Positions 6,826-38,900 of a stretch of 43,579 nucleotides of DNA are shown piece by piece. Position numbers and translations under genes: made by a program. This stretch comes from a virus. Lineage: Duplodnaviria; Heunggongvirae; Uroviricota; Caudoviricetes. The stretch lies in IMG/VR virus record IMGVR_UViG_2671181030_000006; one strand, given 5' to 3'. The notes under the pieces were generated by a model. That model did no database searches. It was not told the origin of the DNA and saw only the letters and a program-made list of their open reading frames with translations. Position 1 is the stretch's first letter; every line of letters begins with the position of its first letter.

Positions 6826-6848
6826 AAAAACCCGGCGCGGTGGCCGGG
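6826..6848 (-). terminator. Intrinsic terminator (tIMM-like) ending the cI-cassette transcript
   Basis: Seen: hairpin CCCGGC-GCGGTG-GCCGGG; on the minus strand it is followed by TTTTT. Confidence 0.5.
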
Positions 6849-6855
6849 TGAGATA

Positions 6856-7788
6856 TTAAAGAACCGATTTAACAAGATGGTTTTTACGGTACAGACCTAT
6901 GCGATCATTGTGAATCTCAGTAGTCTCCACTAAAAGAGAAACAATCTGTCCGACCTTGTGTTTTTTTTGTATTAAATCTAGCATTTCAATCGGATAGGAA
7001 GCCTTTAAATGTTCACCACCAACATCAAGCTCCAGCTTCCCATATTTGGATAGAACGACCAGTTCGCCTGTAACCGTTTCAGTAATGGGAGGGGATGAAA
7101 TGGTTGATGTAAGTCTACTCACCAAGTACTTAATTTTATTGGAGTCAATAGTTGCCACCTTGGTGCCATTACTAAATGGACCGGTCCAACTTGCATCAAA
7201 TGTTAAGTTGTGTTTATCGCATTCCTCTACGATTCTCTTAAGGCTTACAGTGGAATTGTATCCAATTTCAGCGACGTGATTCATGAAGTTGTTGTCGTCA
7301 TCGCTTAACAACAAATCGAATATGCCTTTTACAGCCTTGCTGGGTACTGTTTCTACTAATTCTGCTATTCCTGTAGAGAAGGTGACGCCCAATTTTGTAG
7401 ACCCAGGGGATAAATCAGCCAGCCTGAGGTTTAAGGAGCTTTTCACGTCGTAGGGAACTTTTTTTGAGTCCTTGCCTGAGGCAATTTTGTGTGTTGCTCT
7501 TTGTATTAGCGCTGCAAGATTTGTTGAAATAGCCCCAAGCAGCTCTAAAGGAATAGAGCCAAAGTCAACCTCAGAGCCTTTCAGCCGCAGCTCAAAAAAA
7601 TCGATAAGTGGGTGCCGACTATCTTGCTTTAATTTTTCGGCCTTCAAATCGCTCAGATGAGAATCCATGGAGCGATAAAGAAGCATGTCAGCAAAGGACC
7701 TGGTTTTGTTTTGCTTCATTGCATCGACTTCTTTTTGAATGAAATCAATGCGTTTATCGCAATTTTTAAACATTGATTTATCATTCAT
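6856..7788 (-). CDS. Hypothetical 310-aa protein, distal gene of the AT-rich two-gene cassette at the rex-equivalent locus (candidate defence effector or sensor)
   Basis: Seen: long AT-rich ORF with GAGGA Shine-Dalgarno; start overlaps the upstream gene stop (ATGA). No motif recognised. Confidence 0.7.
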   Translation of the reverse strand: MNDKSMFKNCDKRIDFIQKEVDAMKQNKTRSFADMLLYRSMDSHLSDLKAEKLKQDSRHPLIDFFELRLKGSEVDFGSIPLELLGAISTNLAALIQRATHKIASGKDSKKVPYDVKSSLNLRLADLSPGSTKLGVTFSTGIAELVETVPSKAVKGIFDLLLSDDDNNFMNHVAEIGYNSTVSLKRIVEECDKHNLTFDASWTGPFSNGTKVATIDSNKIKYLVSRLTSTISSPPITETVTGELVVLSKYGKLELDVGGEHLKASYPIEMLDLIQKKHKVGQIVSLLVETTEIHNDRIGLYRKNHLVKSVL

Positions 7789-8264
7789 AAAAAAATCCTC
7801 ACTAACCCTTTCGGGTTTTCACTGCGATCAAAACCAAACCAACCGCGCCAGTAGCTACGCCAGTACTCATAATCATAGTTAGGGTCATCTAAATTCTTCA
7901 TGAGTAGTAGGACATCAATTTTGTAGTTTTGTTTGATGTAGTTTCGGTCAAGCAAATTATCGACGCGGCCCCGAAGCATGACAGGTATTGAGTTTATATT
8001 GCTATAGTCACATACCAACAAAATATCAATATCATCAGGCTCTGGTTTAGACGTGGTGTATGAACCATCAACCCATATTTCTGTAAAACAGCCATATTGA
8101 GCAGATAATTCTCGAATAGATTCGAGTAGCTGTATAAAATTACAGTATAGCATGCCTCGCCTGGATGATGAAGGAAAGCAATCGACACAATACGATTTTA
8201 ATCCAGCTTCATCCATGTCATGGAACCCTGGCTCAAACAGGGGTGGGTAATTAATTTTATCCAT
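7785..8264 (-). CDS. Minimal nucleotidyltransferase-fold protein (GS-x9-DxD motif), proximal gene of the AT-rich cassette
   Basis: Seen: IWVDGSYTTSKPEPDDIDILLVCD matches the Pol-beta-type NTase signature hG[GS]-x9-13-DhDh. ATG 8264 chosen; the track start at 8312 is GTG. Confidence 0.7.
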   Translation of the reverse strand: MDKINYPPLFEPGFHDMDEAGLKSYCVDCFPSSSRRGMLYCNFIQLLESIRELSAQYGCFTEIWVDGSYTTSKPEPDDIDILLVCDYSNINSIPVMLRGRVDNLLDRNYIKQNYKIDVLLLMKNLDDPNYDYEYWRSYWRGWFGFDRSENPKGLVRIFL

Positions 8265-8413
8265 AAAAAACCTTGCTATACATTTGTTTTTTTTTATTAA
8301 AAATCTAACCACCGAAATGGTGACGGCAAGATGTTACATGGGGTTACAATCAGCCAATACACCGCATTAAATAATTTTTTCACCAGCTATGCGCCGACCA
8401 GAACACCTTGCCC

Positions 8414-8526
8414 ATCACCCAAACGTCTCTTCAGGCCACCATAAGCACGATCGCAACAACCGAGAGCAAAGTAACCACGCCTACTATCAGATATTCTCTC
8501 ATCACCCAAACGTCTCTTCAGGCCAC
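8414..8526. repeat. Two perfect 26-bp direct repeats (ATCACCCAAACGTCTCTTCAGGCCAC) at 8414-8439 and 8501-8526
   Basis: Seen directly; located between the cI stop and the NTase gene start. Confidence 0.85.
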
Positions 8527-8574
8527 TGTTAATCTGCTACCCATGCTTCCTGTACGTCCGCGGCATGCTGCTGA

Positions 8575-9285
8575 TCACACAAGTCTCAACTTAGTTTCTA
8601 CAGCCACACCAATGATCCGGCAATTCCCATTGATGGGAACCAATGGCCATTGAGGGTTTAAGCCCTTCAGGTACTTCTGGCCCCCATCAATAATCAGCTT
8701 TTTGAATGTCGCTTCGTTTGATTCGGATAGCTTTGCGATCACAAGGCTGCCATTTACTGGCTCTCGGCCGGTATCAAACAAAACGTAGGTACCCTCTGGT
8801 ATGCTGAGCCCGACCGGGGCAGTCATGGATTCCCCCTCGACCAACAACCAGAACGCATCCCCCTGGATGTGAGCGTCTGATTCTAGCCATAGATCGATAT
8901 CTTTAAGTGCATACGGCTCGCACGCTTCCGACCAATGCCCAGCCTGAATCTTGCTTAATACAGGGTATTTAATGCCTGGGGTGTACTGGCCTGCATACTT
9001 GGCATTCGATGTAGCGGAAGCACTCATTGCAGATATTTCTTTCGCAAGGCTGGGGCTAAAATCAGAGACATCCACCTGGAGGGCTCTGGCAAAAACAGCA
9101 GCCACGGCAGCATTAAGGGCATTCCTGCCATTCAAGTAATGCCCAACGCCCCCCTGAGATATGTCTAGCATGTCAGCTATTGATTGCTGTGTTATCCCAA
9201 GCTCTTTTTTCTTGGCTTCATAGAGGGCTTTCAGCCTTTCTGCGTCAGCGATCTGAGCCGATGTCAGTGTCTTTTTCTTTTCCAT
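8575..9285 (-). CDS. cI: CI-type prophage repressor: N-terminal HTH plus C-terminal LexA-like S24 autopeptidase domain
   Basis: Seen: HTH region (ITQQSIADMLDISQGGVGHYLNG), probable Ala-Gly cleavage site (IQAGHW), Ser (GESMT) and Lys (FKKL) catalytic-type residues. ATG 9285 chosen; the track begins at TTG 9291. Confidence 0.9.
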   Translation of the reverse strand: MEKKKTLTSAQIADAERLKALYEAKKKELGITQQSIADMLDISQGGVGHYLNGRNALNAAVAAVFARALQVDVSDFSPSLAKEISAMSASATSNAKYAGQYTPGIKYPVLSKIQAGHWSEACEPYALKDIDLWLESDAHIQGDAFWLLVEGESMTAPVGLSIPEGTYVLFDTGREPVNGSLVIAKLSESNEATFKKLIIDGGQKYLKGLNPQWPLVPINGNCRIIGVAVETKLRLV

Positions 9286-9296
9286 TTTCAAATAGT

Positions 9297-9358
9297 AATA
9301 CCAATGTTCTTATTTTAAAAATACTAGCGGTATTGCAATGTTTAATACTTGTGGTATT
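9297..9358. promoter_or_regulatory. OR-like operator cluster between cI and cro: AATAC-N5-GTATT at 9320-9334 and 9344-9358 plus a degenerate copy at 9297-9311; probable PRM/PR region
   Basis: Seen: perfect dyad sites 24 bp apart in the divergent cI/cro intergenic region, same motif as at OL. Confidence 0.65.
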
Positions 9359-9389
9359 GTTTACTCATGAGTTGATAGGAGCTAACCAC

Positions 9390-9581
9390 ATGAAAATTTC
9401 TTTAGCTGAATACGTTGACGAAGTTGGACAGGCAAGAGCTGCTGATGCCATCGGCGTTCACCAGACCGCAATTAGTAAAGCTATCCGGGTAGGGCGGAAG
9501 ATTTTCGTTAACACCCTGCCTGATGGAAAAATTAAGGCTGAGGAGATCAAGCCTTTCCCACATAACAGAAATCCTGATTAA
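9390..9581 (+). CDS. cro: Cro-like HTH repressor
   Basis: Seen: 63-aa ORF divergent from cI, Shine-Dalgarno GGAG upstream, HTH-like GVHQTAISKAIR. Inference from position. Confidence 0.7.
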   Translation: MKISLAEYVDEVGQARAADAIGVHQTAISKAIRVGRKIFVNTLPDGKIKAEEIKPFPHNRNPD

Positions 9582-9660
9582 ACAAAGCTGAATTGAGCAG
9601 TCAGCGGGTTCTGACTGAGTAATTCAGCCATTCCAAACACCACCAGAGGAAGTATCACAA

Positions 9661-9882
9661 ATGGAGCGTTCAACGACACGCAACAAAGTGGAGGCTCGCA
9701 GGATAGAAAGCTGGTTACACAGCCAGATAGCTGAACTGGGAACCACGAATATCGCCAAAGTGGCCGGAGTGAATAAGTCGACGGTGAGTCGCTGGCGGGA
9801 AAGTCTGCTGCCGAACATGTCGCTACTGCTGGCCATCCTGATTTCTAACAGGCCGGGAGAGAAAGGTGATTTTGAAGCATGA
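9661..9882 (+). CDS. cII: CII transcriptional activator
   Basis: Seen: RIESWLHSQIAELGTTNIAKVAGVNKSTVSRWRESLLPNMSLLLAIL closely resembles recalled lambda CII. Confidence 0.85.
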   Translation: MERSTTRNKVEARRIESWLHSQIAELGTTNIAKVAGVNKSTVSRWRESLLPNMSLLLAILISNRPGEKGDFEA

Positions 9883-9967
9883 GTGGAAACAGAAGGGCGA
9901 AAGCCGCAGTGCGGGAACACTAACGGCTTTCTACGCGAATTAACTGAACAAATTCACAGGAGTAATT

Positions 9968-10987
9968 ATGGCAAATACTGCCGAAGTAATCAATTTCCCT
10001 GTGCCGGAAAAGGTACAGCAGGAGAGTCGCATGGCTGATCTGGACAATGGCTATCTGCGCCTTGCTAACCAGATTCAGGACGCCTTGTGTGTAGTGGAGC
10101 TTTCGGGGCGCGAATTTCGCGTGCTGAATGCAATTGTTCGCCTGACGTATGGCTGGTCGAAAAAAGAAGACCGGATCGCTAACAGCCTCATCGCTGACAA
10201 AACCATGCTGGCGGTTAAGCACGTTTCTGAAGCGGTTCTCAGCCTTGCTTATCGCAACATCATCAAGGTTCGCAGGATTGGGCAAACACGATACATCGGG
10301 ATCAACACCTGTCTGGATGCATGGGCTTATACCAAACCGAAATGCCCTAAATGTCCGGTGAGTTTTCCGGTCGCTGAAGTTGAAACGCAGGTTATCACCA
10401 TCCCTGAAATTAGGGATAGCAGAATAGCCGCGCCAACCATCCCTGAAAACAGGGATAACCATCCCCAAAAACAGGGAAAGGTATCCCCGGAAACAGGGAA
10501 CACCAAAGACATTCTTTCAAAGACAAATATAAAAACAGATCTAACCCCTATAGTCCCCGCTGGGGACGAGTGTGGAAAACCAGATCCCGATCCGGTTATT
10601 CAGGAGCAGCCGAAGACCGACCCTGTAAGACTGGTTTTCACCCACTGGCAGAAAGAACATGACCACCCGTCAGCAAAACTCGACGACAAACGCCGCAAGC
10701 GCATCAAGGCGCGACTGGCGGAAGGCTTCACTGTGGACGAGCTGTGCCGGGCCATAACTGGCGCAAAAGGCGATCCGTGGCTTATGGGAAAGAACCCTTC
10801 CAGAAAGCGCTATGACGGCATTGAGACGCTCCTGCGAGACGCTGCTCAGGTCGAAAAACTTCGTGATATGGCCGGCGATGCTCACGCAATGGCAATTGCT
10901 CAGGGCCAGTACTCAGCCACAACGGCTCGCAACCTTGAAACCCTCCAGCGCTGGGCTGGCGGCACTGATTCAGGAGAACTTTTCTGA
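9968..10987 (+). CDS. Replication initiator protein (lambda O-like N-terminal domain), containing the origin iterons
   Basis: Seen: N-terminal LSGREFRVLNAIVRLTYGWSKKEDRIANS, typical of O-family initiators; iterons lie inside the gene; AGGAG Shine-Dalgarno. Confidence 0.85.
   Translation: MANTAEVINFPVPEKVQQESRMADLDNGYLRLANQIQDALCVVELSGREFRVLNAIVRLTYGWSKKEDRIANSLIADKTMLAVKHVSEAVLSLAYRNIIKVRRIGQTRYIGINTCLDAWAYTKPKCPKCPVSFPVAEVETQVITIPEIRDSRIAAPTIPENRDNHPQKQGKVSPETGNTKDILSKTNIKTDLTPIVPAGDECGKPDPDPVIQEQPKTDPVRLVFTHWQKEHDHPSAKLDDKRRKRIKARLAEGFTVDELCRAITGAKGDPWLMGKNPSRKRYDGIETLLRDAAQVEKLRDMAGDAHAMAIAQGQYSATTARNLETLQRWAGGTDSGELF
10400..10545. repeat. Candidate replication origin: four about 19-bp iterons (ATCCCTGAAAnnAGGGATA-type) followed by an AT-rich tract
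   Basis: Seen: four tandem iteron-like repeats between about 10400 and 10500, then an AT-rich stretch. Established knowledge: lambda ori lies within gene O and has this architecture. Confidence 0.7.
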
Positions 10988-35951: not shown

Positions 35952-38900
35952 ATGCAGCTTCTTAAACAAGAAACCATCCTGCAGGGTGCCAAAGGGGGAG
36001 GTGGCAGTTCACATACTCCGGTTGAGCAGCCTGACGATCTGCTGTCGGTCGCAAAATTAAAAATGCTCATTGCCGTTTCTGAGGGGGAAATACAGGGCGA
36101 CCTGACCGCTCAGAACATTTTTCTCAACGATACGCCGCTGGCAAACGACAGCGGGGAATACAACTTCAGCGGCGTGAAATGGGAGTTCCGCAAGGGCACA
36201 CAGGACCAGACCTATATTGCCGGGATGCCCCAGGTCGACAACGAGCTGGCCGTGGGCACAACTGTCACCACCACCGCGCCCTGGACGCGCCAGTTTACAA
36301 ACCTTTCCCTGGATGCCATCCGTATCAAGCTCAGCCTTCCGGTCCAGTATCTCTATAAAGATAATGGCGATATGGTGGGCACGGTCACCGAGTATGCGAT
36401 CGATTTATCAACGGACGGCGGCGCCTGGAAAACGGTTGTAAACGGCAAGTTTGACGGAAAGACCACGACGGAATATCAGCGTGACCACCGTATCGATCTG
36501 CCAAAATCCACGTCCGGCTGGTCTGTCAGGGTCAGGCGTATTACGGCTGATGCCAGCGGATCAAATTCGAAACTGGTTAACGCCTTCAAGGTGTTTTCGT
36601 ATGCGGAAGTCATCGACAGCAAGCTTCGTTATCCTTTAACAGCGCTCCTGTATGTCGAAGTGGACAGCAGCCAATTCAACGGCAGCGCGCCGAAAGTGAC
36701 CTGTAAGATAAAAGGCAAGCTGATTAAGGTTCCGGATAATTACGATCCGAAAACCCGAACCTATTCTGGTTCATGGTCCGGCGGGTTCAAAATGGCATGG
36801 TCCAATAACCCTGCCTGGATCTTTTACGATCTGGTTCTGGATGAAATTTACGGCATGGGCACGCGCGTGGATGCGTCCATGGTGGATAAGTGGGCGCTGT
36901 ATTCAATCGCCCAGTACTGTGACGAAATGGTTTCCGACGGGGCCGGTGGCACCGAACCGCGTTTCACCTGCAACGTTTTCATTCAGAGCCAGGAGGACGC
37001 CTGGCAGGTACTTAACGATCTCGCCGCGGTATTTCGTGGAATAACGTTCTGGGGCAACGATCAGATTTATGTCCAGGCAGACGTCCCGCAGGACGATGTT
37101 GACTGGGTTTATAACGTCTCAAACGTTATCGATGGGCTGTTTACTTATGCGGGCGGCTCATACAAGAATCGCTACAGCTCCTGCCTGGTGTCCTGGTCCG
37201 ATCCGCAGAACCATTACAGCGATACCGTTGAGGGGGTTTACGATTCGGCGCTTGTAGAACGTTACGACGTCCGGCAGACGTCCCTGACCGCAATCGGCTG
37301 CACCTCGCAAAGTGAAGCGCACCGACGCGGTCGCTGGGTATTGCTCTCCAATGCCAAAGACGGGACCGTATCGTTTGGCGTGGGGCTGGACGGTTATATC
37401 CCTTTGCCCGCTGAAATTATCGGTGTCGCCGATCCTTTCCGCTCTGGTAAGGAGAACGGGGGCCGTATAAGCGCGGCCAACGGCCGCCAAATTACCCTCG
37501 ATCGAGAAATAGACTACGCGGCGAAAGACCGGCTGGTGGTTAACCTTCCCGACGGAAAAGCCCAGACGCGGACAATCAGCGCGGTGAGCGCCGATAAAAA
37601 AACGGTGACGGTGGCTACGGCATTCAGTCAGGTTCCTGTGGCGGGCGCTGTTTGGGCGATAGACAGTGATAACCTCGCAATACAGTACTTCAGGGTCACC
37701 TCAATCGCGGCTAACGACGACAGTACAGGCGGTTTCACTATTACGGCCGTTCAGCACGATCCAAACAAATATCGTTACATCGATGACGGCGTTCGGGTCG
37801 AGTCTCCCCCGATCACCGTCACGCCGATAAGCGTCCTGTCTGCTCCGAAGAATATCGTGGTGACTGAGAGCGATCATGTGTCTCAGGGGCTGACTGTAGC
37901 AAGCCTGGACGTGTCATGGGATAAGGTAGAGGGCGCAATCCGGTATGTTGCCCAGTGGCGTAAGGACAACGGGGACTGGATAAACGTTCCGGTTACCAGC
38001 GCGCAGGGTTTCTCGGTTCAGGGCATTTATTCGGGCAGCTATGACGTGCGCGTACGGGCGCTGAATGCGCAGGATACGTCGTCACCATGGGGATACGGTG
38101 AAACAACTTATCTCTCCGGTAAAACGGGAAAACCGGGTACTCCGCTCAACTTCCTGGCGACCGAAGATGTGGTCTGGCATATCGACCTGACCTGGAAATT
38201 TCCGGATGGCTCAGGCGACACGGCCTATACAGAGATTCAGCGCGCCACAACTGCCGACTACGCCAATCCTGAACTGCTGGTCCTGGTGCCGTACCCGGCT
38301 GCAGATTATCAGCATGGCCCCATGCCTGCCGGCGTTCGCCAGTGGTACCGCGCGCGCCTGATTGACCGTATCGGTAACGCCGGGGACTGGACCGACTGGA
38401 TCATGGGCACGTCCTCGATAGATGTCAGCGAAATAACTAATGACATTCTGGAGGATATGAAAGAGTCGGAAACGTTCAAAGACCTGATCGAGAACGCGGT
38501 GGACAGCAACGAAAAAATTGCTGGCATGGCTAACGATATCAAACAGGCCAACGACGAACTGGAGCAGCAAGCGAAAGATATCGCCAAAAATGCCCAGGAC
38601 GTCGGGAAGGTTCAGACCAGCGTTAATGAGCTTTCCAGCACGGTCGGGAATGTTTCGTCTTCACTCAGTCAGCTTGAGCAGACCGTTGCGACGGCTGATA
38701 CCGCCCTGGGCCAGCGAATCGACAACATCAGCGTTTCTATGGACGGCATGACGGGCGGGGTGAAGAACTCTGCAATTGCGATAATCCAGGCCAACCTCGC
38801 TCAGGTGGCCACGCGTAAAACCCTTTCTGCATCGGTCGCCGGCAACAGCGCGAATCTGGACCGCATTGATGAAGTGATTGTCAACGACAGGGAGGCAACG

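What the first reader, a model, noticed from the sequence alone, without database searches (positions are those of the whole stretch)
8414..8526. Perfect 26-bp direct repeat pair between cI and the cassette
ATCACCCAAACGTCTCTTCAGGCCAC occurs twice, 87 bp apart, in the 260-bp gap between the cI stop and the NTase gene. A perfect repeat of this length in a non-coding gap is unlikely by chance. It could be a regulator binding site pair, an RNA element controlling read-through from cI into the cassette, or a scar of the recombination that inserted the cassette.
Basis: seen in the sequence. Interest (0 to 1): 0.45.

Follow-up and report, generated by a model that had tools for sequence, protein, structure and literature searches.

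The report
Duplicated cI gene-end flanking hidden small gene
The repeat is two leftover copies of the last 27 bases of a lambda-type phage repressor gene, and they bracket an unannotated but conserved 24-codon membrane-peptide gene (also present in phage phi80 and common lab E. coli strains) at a known gene-shuffling hotspot.

Summary
The repeat is real: 27 nt (not 26), exact, at 8413-8439 and 8500-8526, never seen in shuffles. All genes here are on the minus strand. On that strand the 27-mer reads (Q)WPEETFG-stop, the conserved 3' end of lambda/434/mEpX1-type cI genes. The window's own cI ends differently (...VETKLRLV*), so both copies are orphan cI tails.

Between them lies a 24-codon ORF (8431-8505, minus; MMREYLIVGVVTLLSVVAIVLMVA). 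Its GTG start lies in the upstream copy, overlapping the old cI stop as GTGA. Its last two codons and stop lie in the downstream copy.

The same block occurs, unannotated, in phi80 and in about 100 other contigs, behind at least 12 upstream and before at least 24 downstream contexts. The ORF has no indels. Six of 7 polymorphic sites are third codon positions. A 65%-identical paralog keeps the peptide (P about 0.0003). The repeats are conserved only where they overlap the ORF's start and stop.

Verdict: these are recombination joints in the known cI-N mosaic hotspot, bracketing a probable new small membrane-protein gene. RNA-element and binding-site readings found no support. Expression and function are untested.

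The parts
8500..8526 (-). cI-proximal copy of the 27-mer. It is an orphan lambda-type cI 3' end, reading (Q)WPEETFG-TGA. Its last bases supply the GTG start (8505-8503) of the small ORF, overlapping the fossil TGA as GTGA.
   Evidence: exact repeat. (identity to the lambda, 434, HK544 and mEpX1 cI ends). (an in-frame stop lies just upstream, so it is not the end of a long ORF here; it is the real cI end in L136, L144, L146, L149, L153 and L166). (positions 16-26 invariant and GTG present in 57/57 contexts).
8413..8439 (-). Cassette-proximal copy of the 27-mer. Its first 9 nt are the last two codons and the TGA stop of the small ORF. It is contiguous with the lambda/mEpX1-type post-cI spacer.
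   Evidence: (window 8384-8439 matches lambda 37196-37251 at 96.4%; window 8300-8439 matches mEpX1 at 98.6%). (E. coli loci with the same cassette lose homology at 8439, where the 27-mer is the end of an annotated LexA-family cI). (positions 1-9 essentially invariant; positions 22-27 decay to 0.51-0.70).
8431..8505 (-). Unannotated small ORF of 24 codons plus stop. GTG start; peptide (f)M-MREYLIVGVVTLLSVVAIVLMVA. One charged N-terminal patch is followed by 19 uncharged, mostly aliphatic residues, so it is predicted to be a single-pass membrane peptide.
   Evidence: ORF. (about 100 copies, no indels or stops, 6 of 7 variable sites at codon position 3). (paralog 65% identical in DNA; peptide conserved with P=0.0003 in this frame against 0.46 in the other open frame). 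(never called or named).
8537..8575 (-). Fossil of a third cI tail. It reads ...SSMPRTYRKHG-TAG in a frame other than the window's cI, and is homologous to the real 3' end of the ...GKVIGSMPQTYRKHG* cI alleles. The cI-side module ends at its stop codon.
   Evidence: long ORFs ending SMPQTYRKHG* in L129, L130, L147 and others. (upstream classes U2 and U4 against U11, which is the window). (E. coli 126096 and DY612 share the window's cI and this flank, and diverge at about 8538).
8384..8412 (-). Lambda-type spacer that follows the cI stop in lambda, 434, SfI, mEpX1 and other phages.
8575..9291 (-). The window's own cI repressor gene (S24/LexA-type), ending ...CRIIGVAVETKLRLV*. This is not a lambda-type tail.
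   Evidence: (about 67% DNA identity to the HK630 and HK620 cI genes). (98.6-99.2% identical allele annotated as a LexA family protein in some E. coli).
6856..8264 (-). Two-gene accessory cassette in the rex position. It comprises a DUF6932 protein (7785-8264) and a 310-aa partner (6856-7788), matching the PADLOC candidate system PDC-M63 A and B. A terminator-like hairpin follows at 6830-6849.
   Evidence: DUF6932, 1.7e-24. (PDC-M63A 1.8e-41, PDC-M63B 7.5e-45). (terminator-like site). (same cassette in mEpX1, CB7286, G3/10 and NCTC 13148).

Best explanation
The two 27-mers are two copies of the 3' end of a lambda-type cI repressor gene (codons W-P-E-E-T-F-G, the stop, and the next few bases). 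Neither is the end of the window's own cI, which has a different C-terminus, so both are orphan tails. Together they bracket and partly form a 24-codon gene for a small hydrophobic, probably inner-membrane, peptide. The upstream copy provides the start region: a GTG that overlaps the old cI stop as GTGA. In phages where that copy is still the real cI end, this is the classic arrangement for translational coupling. The downstream copy provides the last two codons and the stop. Because the flanks are the sequence that ends many cI genes, homologous recombination with other lambdoid phages can cross over in either copy. A crossover in one copy swaps the repressor allele. A crossover in the other swaps the accessory cassette. 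The small gene is carried along in between. In a lysogen the small gene would be transcribed with cI and the cassette from the repressor promoter. Shown: the identity of the 27-mer with cI ends; the orphan status here; the coincidence of homology breakpoints with copy edges; heavy reassortment of flanks; and coding-type constraint on the small ORF. Inferred: recombination as the mechanism; co-transcription from the cI promoter; translation; membrane location; and any function of the peptide. The most likely function is a lysogen-expressed accessory membrane peptide of the kind found at this slot.
For: Identity of the repeat:
- The minus-strand 27-mer translates to (Q)WPEETFG*. It matches the annotated cI 3' ends of lambda, 434, HK544, SfI, VT1-Sakai and mEpX1 at 95-99%.

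Orphan status:
- The window's cI ends VETKLRLV* at 8575, and an in-frame stop precedes the upstream copy.

Joints:
- E. coli loci with the same cassette lose homology at 8439 or at 8527/8528, the outer edges of the copies.
- Loci with the same cI allele diverge at about 8538.
- The downstream copy in G3/10 is chimeric between the phi80 and window types, indicating a crossover inside the 27-mer.
- In 58 two-copy loci, 12 upstream and 24 downstream classes give 37 combinations.
- In 84 single-copy loci the 27-mer precedes 37 downstream classes.
- A scan anchored only on the flanks found no other kind of insert between two copies.

Small ORF:
- The interior is always 63 nt in 57 flank-anchored copies, with 5 of 5 variable sites at codon position 3.
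- 38 metagenome copies add only one conservative Leu-to-Ile change.
- The paralog MMRDYLIVGTVTVLTATVIFLIVA differs at 22 of 63 nt but scores BLOSUM62 60, against 28.7 +/- 9.6 in simulations. P=0.0003 in this frame and 0.46 in the other open frame.
- The repeats are conserved only where they overlap the ORF. Upstream-copy positions 16-26 and the GTG are present in 57/57. The downstream-copy TGA stop is present in 57/57, but its GTG in only 32/57.
- A strong Shine-Dalgarno-like GAGGTG occurs in 28/57 upstream copies against 8/57 downstream copies.
- In related prophages the ORF sits in arrays of small membrane-protein genes behind cI, including a YoaK-family gene, ending in a hairpin plus T-run.

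Context:
- The cI-N interval is described as a mosaic hotspot and accessory-gene site transcribed from the cI promoter (PMC8585504 and PMC7067206, both citing Degnan et al. 2007).
Against: - No expression data exist. The peptide is absent from a 15-billion-protein collection and from Pfam, NCBIfam and PHROGs.
- Diversity of the canonical ORF is very low (at most 2 nt per copy), so the third-position signal rests on only 7 sites. It could partly reflect recent spread rather than long purifying selection.
- The paralog evidence comes from essentially one lineage (L148, L223-L231).
- In this window the upstream copy is an orphan, so coupling to cI translation is lost. Its Shine-Dalgarno-like sequence (AAGAGA) is weak.
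- Codon 2 is ATG in some copies and ATA in about 40%, so only the GTG can be the universal start.
- No pair of loci with identical flanks differing only by the 87-bp unit was found, so gain or loss through the repeats is not directly shown.
- How the second tail copy first arose is not resolved. The idea that the 60-nt core is a degenerate duplicate of a cI 3' end was not supported.
Confidence: 0.7

Rival explanations
1. Pure scar. The two tails and the 60 nt between them are neutral debris of past recombination at the cI 3' end. The open reading frame is fortuitous and not translated, and its uniformity reflects recent spread by recombination.
For: The region is a graveyard of cI tails: three fossil tails lie behind the window's cI. 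The canonical block differs by at most 2 nt among about 100 copies, as expected for a young hitch-hiker. It has never been annotated. The ribosome-binding site in this window is weak.
Against: The paralog pair keeps the peptide despite 35% DNA divergence (P=0.0003, frame-specific). 6 of 7 polymorphisms are third positions and there are no indels in about 100 copies. Conservation of the repeats is confined to the parts that overlap the ORF start and stop.
Confidence: 0.17
2. Cis-acting RNA element in the cI 3' UTR (a terminator, attenuator, processing site or small RNA) that controls read-through into the cassette.
For: The block lies in the transcribed gap between cI and the cassette. A weak hairpin followed by a T-rich run exists further downstream at 8308-8327.
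Against: No Rfam match at E<=1 in 7000-10000. Folding energies are no better than shuffles: z=-0.54 for the whole gap and +0.40 for the block on either strand. Direct repeats cannot pair with each other. The substitution pattern follows codons, not helices. No terminator-like site lies in the block.
Confidence: 0.03
3. Pair of binding sites for a regulator (for example the repressor or a cassette-encoded protein), spaced about 8 helical turns apart.
For: Two identical 27-mers lie 87 bp apart in a non-coding-looking gap.
Against: The same 27 nt are ordinary coding sequence at the end of many cI genes. They have no dyad symmetry. Identity of the two copies is the exception, 3 of 57 contexts. The distal half of the downstream copy decays freely. 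Most loci have only one copy.
Confidence: 0.02
4. Target-site duplication or recombination site of a mobile element. On this view the 87-bp unit is inserted by a transposase or site-specific recombinase that recognises the cI tail, like an integron cassette site.
For: An insert flanked by direct repeats, found in many contexts.
Against: 27 bp is far longer than known target duplications (own knowledge). The unit has no inverted repeats. No recombinase gene is consistently linked, and the downstream genes are of many unrelated families. Breakpoints are not at one fixed position: the G3/10 copy is chimeric and the downstream copies decay at different points. That pattern fits homologous or microhomology-mediated exchange.
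Confidence: 0.03
5. The small ORF is the toxin of a type I toxin-antitoxin pair, repressed by an antisense RNA.
For: Size and composition resemble Ibs-, ShoB- and TisB-type hydrophobic toxins (own knowledge). The location is in a prophage.
Against: No promoter-like site on the opposite strand of the block. No Rfam antitoxin RNA family match. No stable structure on the antisense strand. The ORF often sits in a row of other small membrane-protein genes, including YoaK, which is not known as a toxin.
Confidence: 0.05

Closest known systems
3' end of the phage lambda cI gene and the cI-rexA junction (lambda 37196-37251)
   Same: The 27-mer differs from lambda's ...CAG TGG CCT GAA GAG ACG TTT GGC TGA T at one or two bases. 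The downstream copy continues into the same 30-nt spacer that follows cI in lambda, 434 and SfI.
   Different: In lambda it is the functional end of cI and occurs once. Here there are two copies, neither ends a long ORF, and a small ORF lies between them.
Mosaic joints of lambdoid phages; the cI-N interval as a hotspot of mosaic diversity and accessory (moron) loci (Degnan et al. 2007, as cited in PMC8585504 and PMC7067206; modular-evolution and moron concepts of Susskind-Botstein and Hendrix, own knowledge)
   Same: It sits at a module boundary. Unrelated repressor alleles lie on one side and unrelated accessory genes on the other, and homology breaks at the conserved patch.
   Different: The short conserved patch is identified precisely as a gene tail, is present in tandem, and doubles as the start and stop region of a nested small gene.
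Small membrane proteins of enterobacteria, for example the YoaK family (NF033821)
   Same: A single hydrophobic helix of 24-32 residues. YoaK-family genes sit directly next to this ORF in related prophages, within the same operon-like array.
   Different: There is no sequence relationship to YoaK or to any curated family. The ORF lies below the length cut-off of gene callers and has never been annotated.
Phage phi80 immunity region (cI to gene 40A interval)
   Same: The same 113-bp block at 98% identity, 5 nt after the phi80 cI stop. The peptide is identical.
   Different: phi80 has a different cI, a different downstream gene (40A, DUF7946/DUF7947) and 2 mismatches in the downstream copy. The block is unannotated in all three phi80 records.

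Membership tests
Lambda-type cI (S24/LexA-family repressor) gene 3' terminus | Nucleotide and amino-acid identity with the last 8 codons plus stop of lambda-type cI genes | tested here: met
   95-99% identity to annotated cI ends; translation is QWPEETFG*.
Lambda-type cI (S24/LexA-family repressor) gene 3' terminus | Being the in-frame end of a long repressor ORF | tested here: not met
   In the window both copies are orphans: an in-frame TAA lies two codons before W in the upstream copy, and stops lie in that frame between the copies. The feature is met in related loci L136, L144, L146, L149, L153 and L166 for the upstream copy.
Mosaic joint (module boundary) of lambdoid phages | Homology between genomes breaks at the element | tested here: met
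   Breaks at 8439, 8527/8528 and about 8538. A chimeric copy occurs in G3/10.
Mosaic joint (module boundary) of lambdoid phages | Different modules are combined on either side in different genomes | tested here: met
   12 x 24 classes give 37 combinations. Single-copy loci show 37 downstream classes. Downstream genes belong to unrelated families: KilA-N, Bro-N, HipA_2, a ParA-like ATPase, P63C, DUF6932 and DUF7946.
Protein-coding small gene | ORF intact in all copies, with substitutions concentrated at synonymous or third positions | tested here: met
   About 100 copies with no indel or stop; 6 of 7 variable sites at position 3.
Protein-coding small gene | Diverged homologs conserve the protein more than the DNA, in one frame only | tested here: met
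   P=0.0003 in the ORF frame against 0.46 in the other open frame. This rests on one paralog lineage.
Protein-coding small gene | Evidence of translation | not testable with these tools
   No ribosome profiling or proteomics is available here.
YoaK family small membrane protein | Match to the family profile NF033821 | tested here: not met
   No hit for either 24-aa paralog at E<=10. The neighbouring 32-aa ORF hits at 9.3e-18.
Type I toxin-antitoxin | Antisense or overlapping small RNA with its own promoter | tested here: not met
   No promoter-like site on the opposite strand in the block, no Rfam family and no stable antisense fold. A consensus scan cannot exclude a weak promoter.
Structured cis-regulatory RNA or intrinsic terminator | Stable or conserved secondary structure, or a match to a described family | tested here: not met
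Transposon target duplication or site-specific recombination site | Terminal inverted repeats, a linked recombinase and a fixed crossover point | tested here: not met

The most novel reading that the evidence does not exclude
The 87-bp unit is a minimal portable gene. It encodes a 24-residue membrane peptide, and its own start and stop regions are copies of the neighbouring repressor gene's tail. Any lambda-type phage therefore offers it homology on both sides, and it spreads through heteroimmune lambdoid phages by ordinary homologous recombination. It also builds tandem arrays with other small membrane-protein genes. In lysogens the peptide is made together with the repressor, by stop-start coupling where the tail is real. 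It acts on the host membrane, for example in superinfection exclusion or as a partner of the adjacent defence cassettes. It would then be an overlooked lysogenic gene of phi80 and of DH5alpha/DH10B-type cloning strains.
Probability: 0.3. Interest if true: 0.6.

Novelty: new member of a known kind. Interest (0 to 1): 0.45.

Why it matters
This turns an unexplained repeat into three concrete things.

1. It gives a base-pair-level example of how lambdoid immunity regions are reassorted. A conserved 27-nt gene tail acts as the shared joint between repressor alleles and the accessory or defence slot, with fossil tails piling up behind cI.
2. It identifies a candidate new small membrane-protein gene that annotation pipelines cannot see because it has only 24 codons. 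The gene is present in the classical phage phi80 and hence in DH5alpha, DH10B, TOP10, JM83 and similar strains.
3. It shows that arrays of small membrane-protein genes (a 39-aa ORF, this ORF and its paralog, and YoaK homologs) sit in the repressor operon of many enterobacterial prophages. They lie next to defence cassettes such as PDC-M63.

If the peptide is functional, it is an easily testable lysogenic-conversion or exclusion factor.

Tried and rejected
- **Core as a degenerate cI duplicate.** I tested whether the 60-nt core is a degenerate duplicate of a cI 3' end, which would make the block a partial tandem duplication. The best match to real cI 3' regions is a 10-nt word, scoring 20 against a shuffle mean of 18.6 (maximum 28). 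Not supported.
- **Other inserts between two tails.** A scan anchored only on the flanks returned only this core.
- **More diverged relatives.** Codon-aware patterns were run on viral, genome and metagenome collections. They returned only canonical copies, one paralog lineage and five chance hits (L178-L182).
- **Protein searches.** The 24-aa query is below the 40-aa minimum of the large homology search. Exact look-up found nothing. tblastn against phage records found only phi80, so there is no evidence that the ORF is the truncated N-terminus of a longer protein.
- **Curated families.** Pfam, NCBIfam and PHROGs gave no match for the peptide.
- **RNA readings.** Rfam and folding on both strands gave nothing.
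- **Promoters and terminators.** The scan found nothing inside the block.
- **Precise gain or loss.** I looked for single-copy and two-copy loci with identical flanks and found none in the sample.
- **A corrected error.** I first read as showing the cassette in 307 of 5426 E. coli genomes. One search showed that most of those matches are short cI-tail or phi80-block hits. Only about 20 records carry the near-identical cassette.
- **Literature.** No description of the peptide or of this duplicated tail was found. Degnan et al. 2007 is not held as full text and was read only through citing papers.

Full report
**The observation**

The 26-mer is present exactly twice, at the stated coordinates. 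No further match appears at up to 3 mismatches, and none appeared in 100 shuffles. The exact repeat is 27 nt: 8413-8439 and 8500-8526, spaced 87 nt apart. All genes in this part of the window are on the minus strand. They are:
- cI at 8575-9291;
- a DUF6932 gene at 7785-8264, using the ATG that RefSeq annotates for the identical gene;
- a 310-aa partner at 6856-7788.

The repeat therefore has to be read on the minus strand: GTGGCCTGAAGAGACGTTTGGGTGATG.

**What the 27-mer is**

With the preceding CA, that strand reads CAG TGG CCT GAA GAG ACG TTT GGG TGA, which translates to Q-W-P-E-E-T-F-G-stop. BLAST places window 8384-8439 on lambda 37196-37251 at 96.4% identity. That stretch is the last 25 nt of lambda cI plus the 31 nt after its stop. 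BLAST also places it on the cI ends of 434, SfI, HK544 and VT1-Sakai. Window 8300-8439 matches mEpX1 at 98.6%. Translation of the lambda locus confirms ...VIASQWPEETFG*, and the alignment confirms the register. The window's own cI ends ...CRIIGVAVETKLRLV* at 8575. In the W-P-E-E frame there is a TAA two codons before the upstream copy, and several stops lie between the copies. Both copies are therefore orphan tails of a lambda-type cI gene.

**What lies between the copies**

On the minus strand a 24-codon ORF runs from GTG at 8505 to TGA at 8433-8431. It reads (M)MREYLIVGVVTLLSVVAIVLMVA. Its GTG is the GTG of GGGTGATG at the end of the upstream copy, and it overlaps the fossil cI stop as GTGA. 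Its last two codons and stop (GTG GCC TGA) are the first 9 nt of the downstream copy. The repeat is thus both the flank and part of the body of this ORF.

**Distribution**

- The 113-bp block is 98% identical in phage phi80 (NC_021190 34474-34586). There it starts 5 nt after the phi80 cI stop and precedes gene 40A. It is unannotated in all three phi80 records.
- Because many cloning strains carry a phi80 fragment, the block is present in DH5alpha, DH10B, TOP10, JM83, XL10-Gold, EPI300 and others. It also occurs in a few natural E. coli isolates (CB7286, G3/10, NCTC 13148), always unannotated.
- An exact 20-mer from the core found 54 IMG/VR contigs.
- A scan anchored only on the two tails, with 50-75 free bases between them, found 50 loci, all from the 20-mer set and none new. 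This core is therefore the only insert that occurs between two tails.
- A codon-aware pattern found 38 metagenome contigs and two species-representative genomes, both Enterobacter.
- In total there are 102 occurrences in 57 distinct 194-nt contexts.

**The copies are recombination joints**

- *Upstream contexts.* In 58 two-copy loci the sequence upstream of the block falls into 12 classes. These represent at least six different repressor C-termini: phi80 ...SVLRYRR*, ...AYNKL*, ...VETKLRLV*, ...SMPQTYRKHG*, ...FWYSVLL* and ...EWLKSS*. They also include real lambda-type ends, ...VVGKVVASQWPEETFG*, in L136, L144, L146, L149, L153 and L166.
- *Reassortment.* The sequence downstream falls into 24 classes, and 37 combinations are seen.
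- *Downstream genes.* The downstream genes belong to unrelated families: DUF6932/PDC-M63, 40A (DUF7946/DUF7947), KilA-N, Bro-N, HipA-like kinase, a ParA-like ATPase and P63C.
- *Single-copy loci.* In 84 single-copy loci the 27-mer precedes 37 downstream classes.
- *Breakpoints on the cassette side.* In complete E. coli genomes, loci with the near-identical cassette lose homology to the window at 8439. There the 27-mer is the end of an annotated LexA-family gene. In the few two-copy genomes homology ends at 8527/8528. I first misread as 307 cassette carriers. Even sampling shows that about 20 records carry the cassette and the rest are short tail or phi80-block matches.
- *Breakpoints on the cI side.* Genomes with the window's cI allele (126096, DY612) share the flank up to about 8538 and diverge there.
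- *A crossover inside the 27-mer.* The downstream copy of G3/10 is phi80-like in its first half and window-like in its second half.
- *Origin of the downstream copies.* Where downstream copies differ from the consensus, the changes are often silent in the cI frame. For example...ACT TTT GGA TAG still reads WPDETFG*. This suggests they were captured from real cI ends.
- *Prior knowledge.* The cI-N interval is already described as a mosaic hotspot and a site of accessory loci expressed from the repressor promoter (PMC8585504 and PMC7067206, citing Degnan et al. 2007).

**The small ORF behaves like a gene**

1. In the 57 flank-anchored copies, where the interior was left free, the interior is always 63 nt. 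All 5 variable sites are third codon positions of this frame. The metagenome copies add one first-position change, CTT to ATT (Leu to Ile). That makes 6 of 7 sites third positions: four synonymous changes plus two ATG-to-ATA changes (Met to Ile).
2. A diverged paralog, MMRDYLIVGTVTVLTATVIFLIVA, occurs in L148 and L223-L231. It has the same length and the same ends. Over 63 nt it differs at 22 positions (65% identity), yet the peptides score BLOSUM62 60. Random placement of 22 changes gives 28.7 +/- 9.6, so P=0.0003. In the other open frame the score is 11, P=0.46.
3. The repeats are conserved exactly where the ORF needs them:
   - In the upstream copy, positions 16-26 are invariant and the GTG is present in 57/57.
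   - In the downstream copy, positions 1-9 are essentially invariant and the TGA stop is present in 57/57.
   - Downstream positions 22-27 fall to 0.51-0.70, and a GTG remains there in only 32/57.
   - A strong Shine-Dalgarno-like GAGGTG, 5 nt before the GTG, is found in 28/57 upstream copies against 8/57 downstream copies.
4. In L223-L227 and L231 the ORF is one unit of an array with this order:
   - cI and an orphan tail;
   - a 39-aa membrane ORF;
   - the paralog, followed by a tail;
   - the canonical ORF, followed by a partial tail;
   - a YoaK-family ORF (NF033821, 9.3e-18), followed by a tail;
   - a hairpin plus T-run.

   In L228 the paralog stands alone and is still followed by 23 nt of the tail.

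The peptide is not in a 15-billion-protein collection in any variant. It matches no Pfam, NCBIfam or PHROG family. Among 50,697 phage records it is found only in phi80.

**Weaknesses**

- There are no expression data.
- The canonical ORF is almost invariant, so the polymorphism test rests on 7 sites, and recent spread could contribute.
- The paralog evidence is essentially one lineage.
- In this window the upstream tail is an orphan, so stop-start coupling to cI is lost, and the Shine-Dalgarno-like sequence is the weak AAGAGA variant.
- No pair of loci differing only by the 87-bp unit was found.
- The origin of the duplicated tail is unresolved. The idea that the 60-nt core is a degenerate cI 3' end is not supported. 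A plausible route is two successive joins at the short matches TGATG and GTGGCCTGA, but this is inference only.

**Rivals tested**

- *RNA element.* Rfam found nothing at E<=1. Folding z-scores were -0.54, +0.40 and +0.40. There is no terminator- or promoter-like site in the block.
- *Binding-site pair.* The 27-mer is ordinary coding sequence elsewhere, has no dyad symmetry, usually occurs once, and the two copies usually differ.
- *Transposon or site-specific site.* There are no inverted repeats, no linked recombinase and no fixed crossover point.
- *Type I toxin.* There is no antisense promoter or RNA family. This cannot be excluded without experiments.

**Verdict**

The repeat is a duplicated lambda-type cI gene tail that serves as the joint of a known mosaic hotspot. 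It also frames a previously unannotated, evolutionarily constrained 24-codon membrane-peptide ORF shared with phi80. This is a new member of known kinds (mosaic joints; prophage small membrane-protein genes), of moderate interest and readily testable.

Noticed in passing
window 8537-8575 (minus strand): Directly after the window's cI stop lies a third fossil repressor tail. It reads ...SSMPRTYRKHG-TAG in another frame and is homologous to the real C-terminus of the ...GKVIGSMPQTYRKHG* cI alleles. E. coli genomes with the same cI allele diverge from the window right at its stop codon.
   Followed up: partly
window 8297-8418 (minus strand): After the downstream 27-mer there is a chain of stop-start overlaps. 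A 12-codon ORF (8380-8418, GTG ATG GGC ... TGG TGA) has a stop that overlaps, as GTGA, the GTG start of a 28-aa ORF (8297-8383, MKKLFNAVYWLIVTPCNILPSPFRWLDF). That ORF ends about 30 nt before the DUF6932 start. It could be a coupling relay from cI to the cassette, or chance. The stretch is 99% identical wherever it occurs, so conservation is uninformative.
   Followed up: no
window 6856-8264 (minus strand): The two-gene cassette in the rex position matches the PADLOC candidate defence system PDC-M63 (A is DUF6932, 1.8e-41; B is 7.5e-45). It is near-identical in phage mEpX1 and in about 20 complete E. coli genomes, attached to different repressors.
   Followed up: partly
L223 1440-1990 (also L224-L227, L231); L148: Related prophages carry, behind cI, an array of four small membrane-protein ORFs: a 39-aa ORF, the 24-aa paralog, the 24-aa canonical ORF and a 32-aa YoaK-family ORF. 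They are separated by copies or fragments of the cI tail and closed by a hairpin plus T-run. The 39-aa ORF has a homolog behind the window's cI allele in E. coli DY612 (L233).
   Followed up: partly
NC_021190.1 34490-34564 (L001 about 2517-2591); E. coli DH5alpha, DH10B, TOP10, JM83, XL10-Gold and EPI300 genomes: The small ORF is present and unannotated in phi80, and therefore in the phi80 fragment carried by most standard cloning strains.
   Followed up: partly
window 8308-8327 and 6830-6849 (minus strand): A weak hairpin followed by a T-rich run lies just upstream of the DUF6932 gene. A strong GC-rich terminator-like hairpin lies 7 nt after the stop of the 310-aa gene. The latter is probably the end of the cI-cassette transcription unit.
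   Followed up: no
L134, L135, L145, L169 (classes U6 and U7) and downstream classes D7-D9, D13, D20: The lambda-type post-cI spacer and a DNA-diverged copy of the other tail (IETKLRLV*) turn up on either side of the small-ORF block in different loci. The protein-level tail ETKLRLV* is kept despite synonymous differences at nearly every codon. This suggests several independent captures of real cI ends.
   Followed up: no
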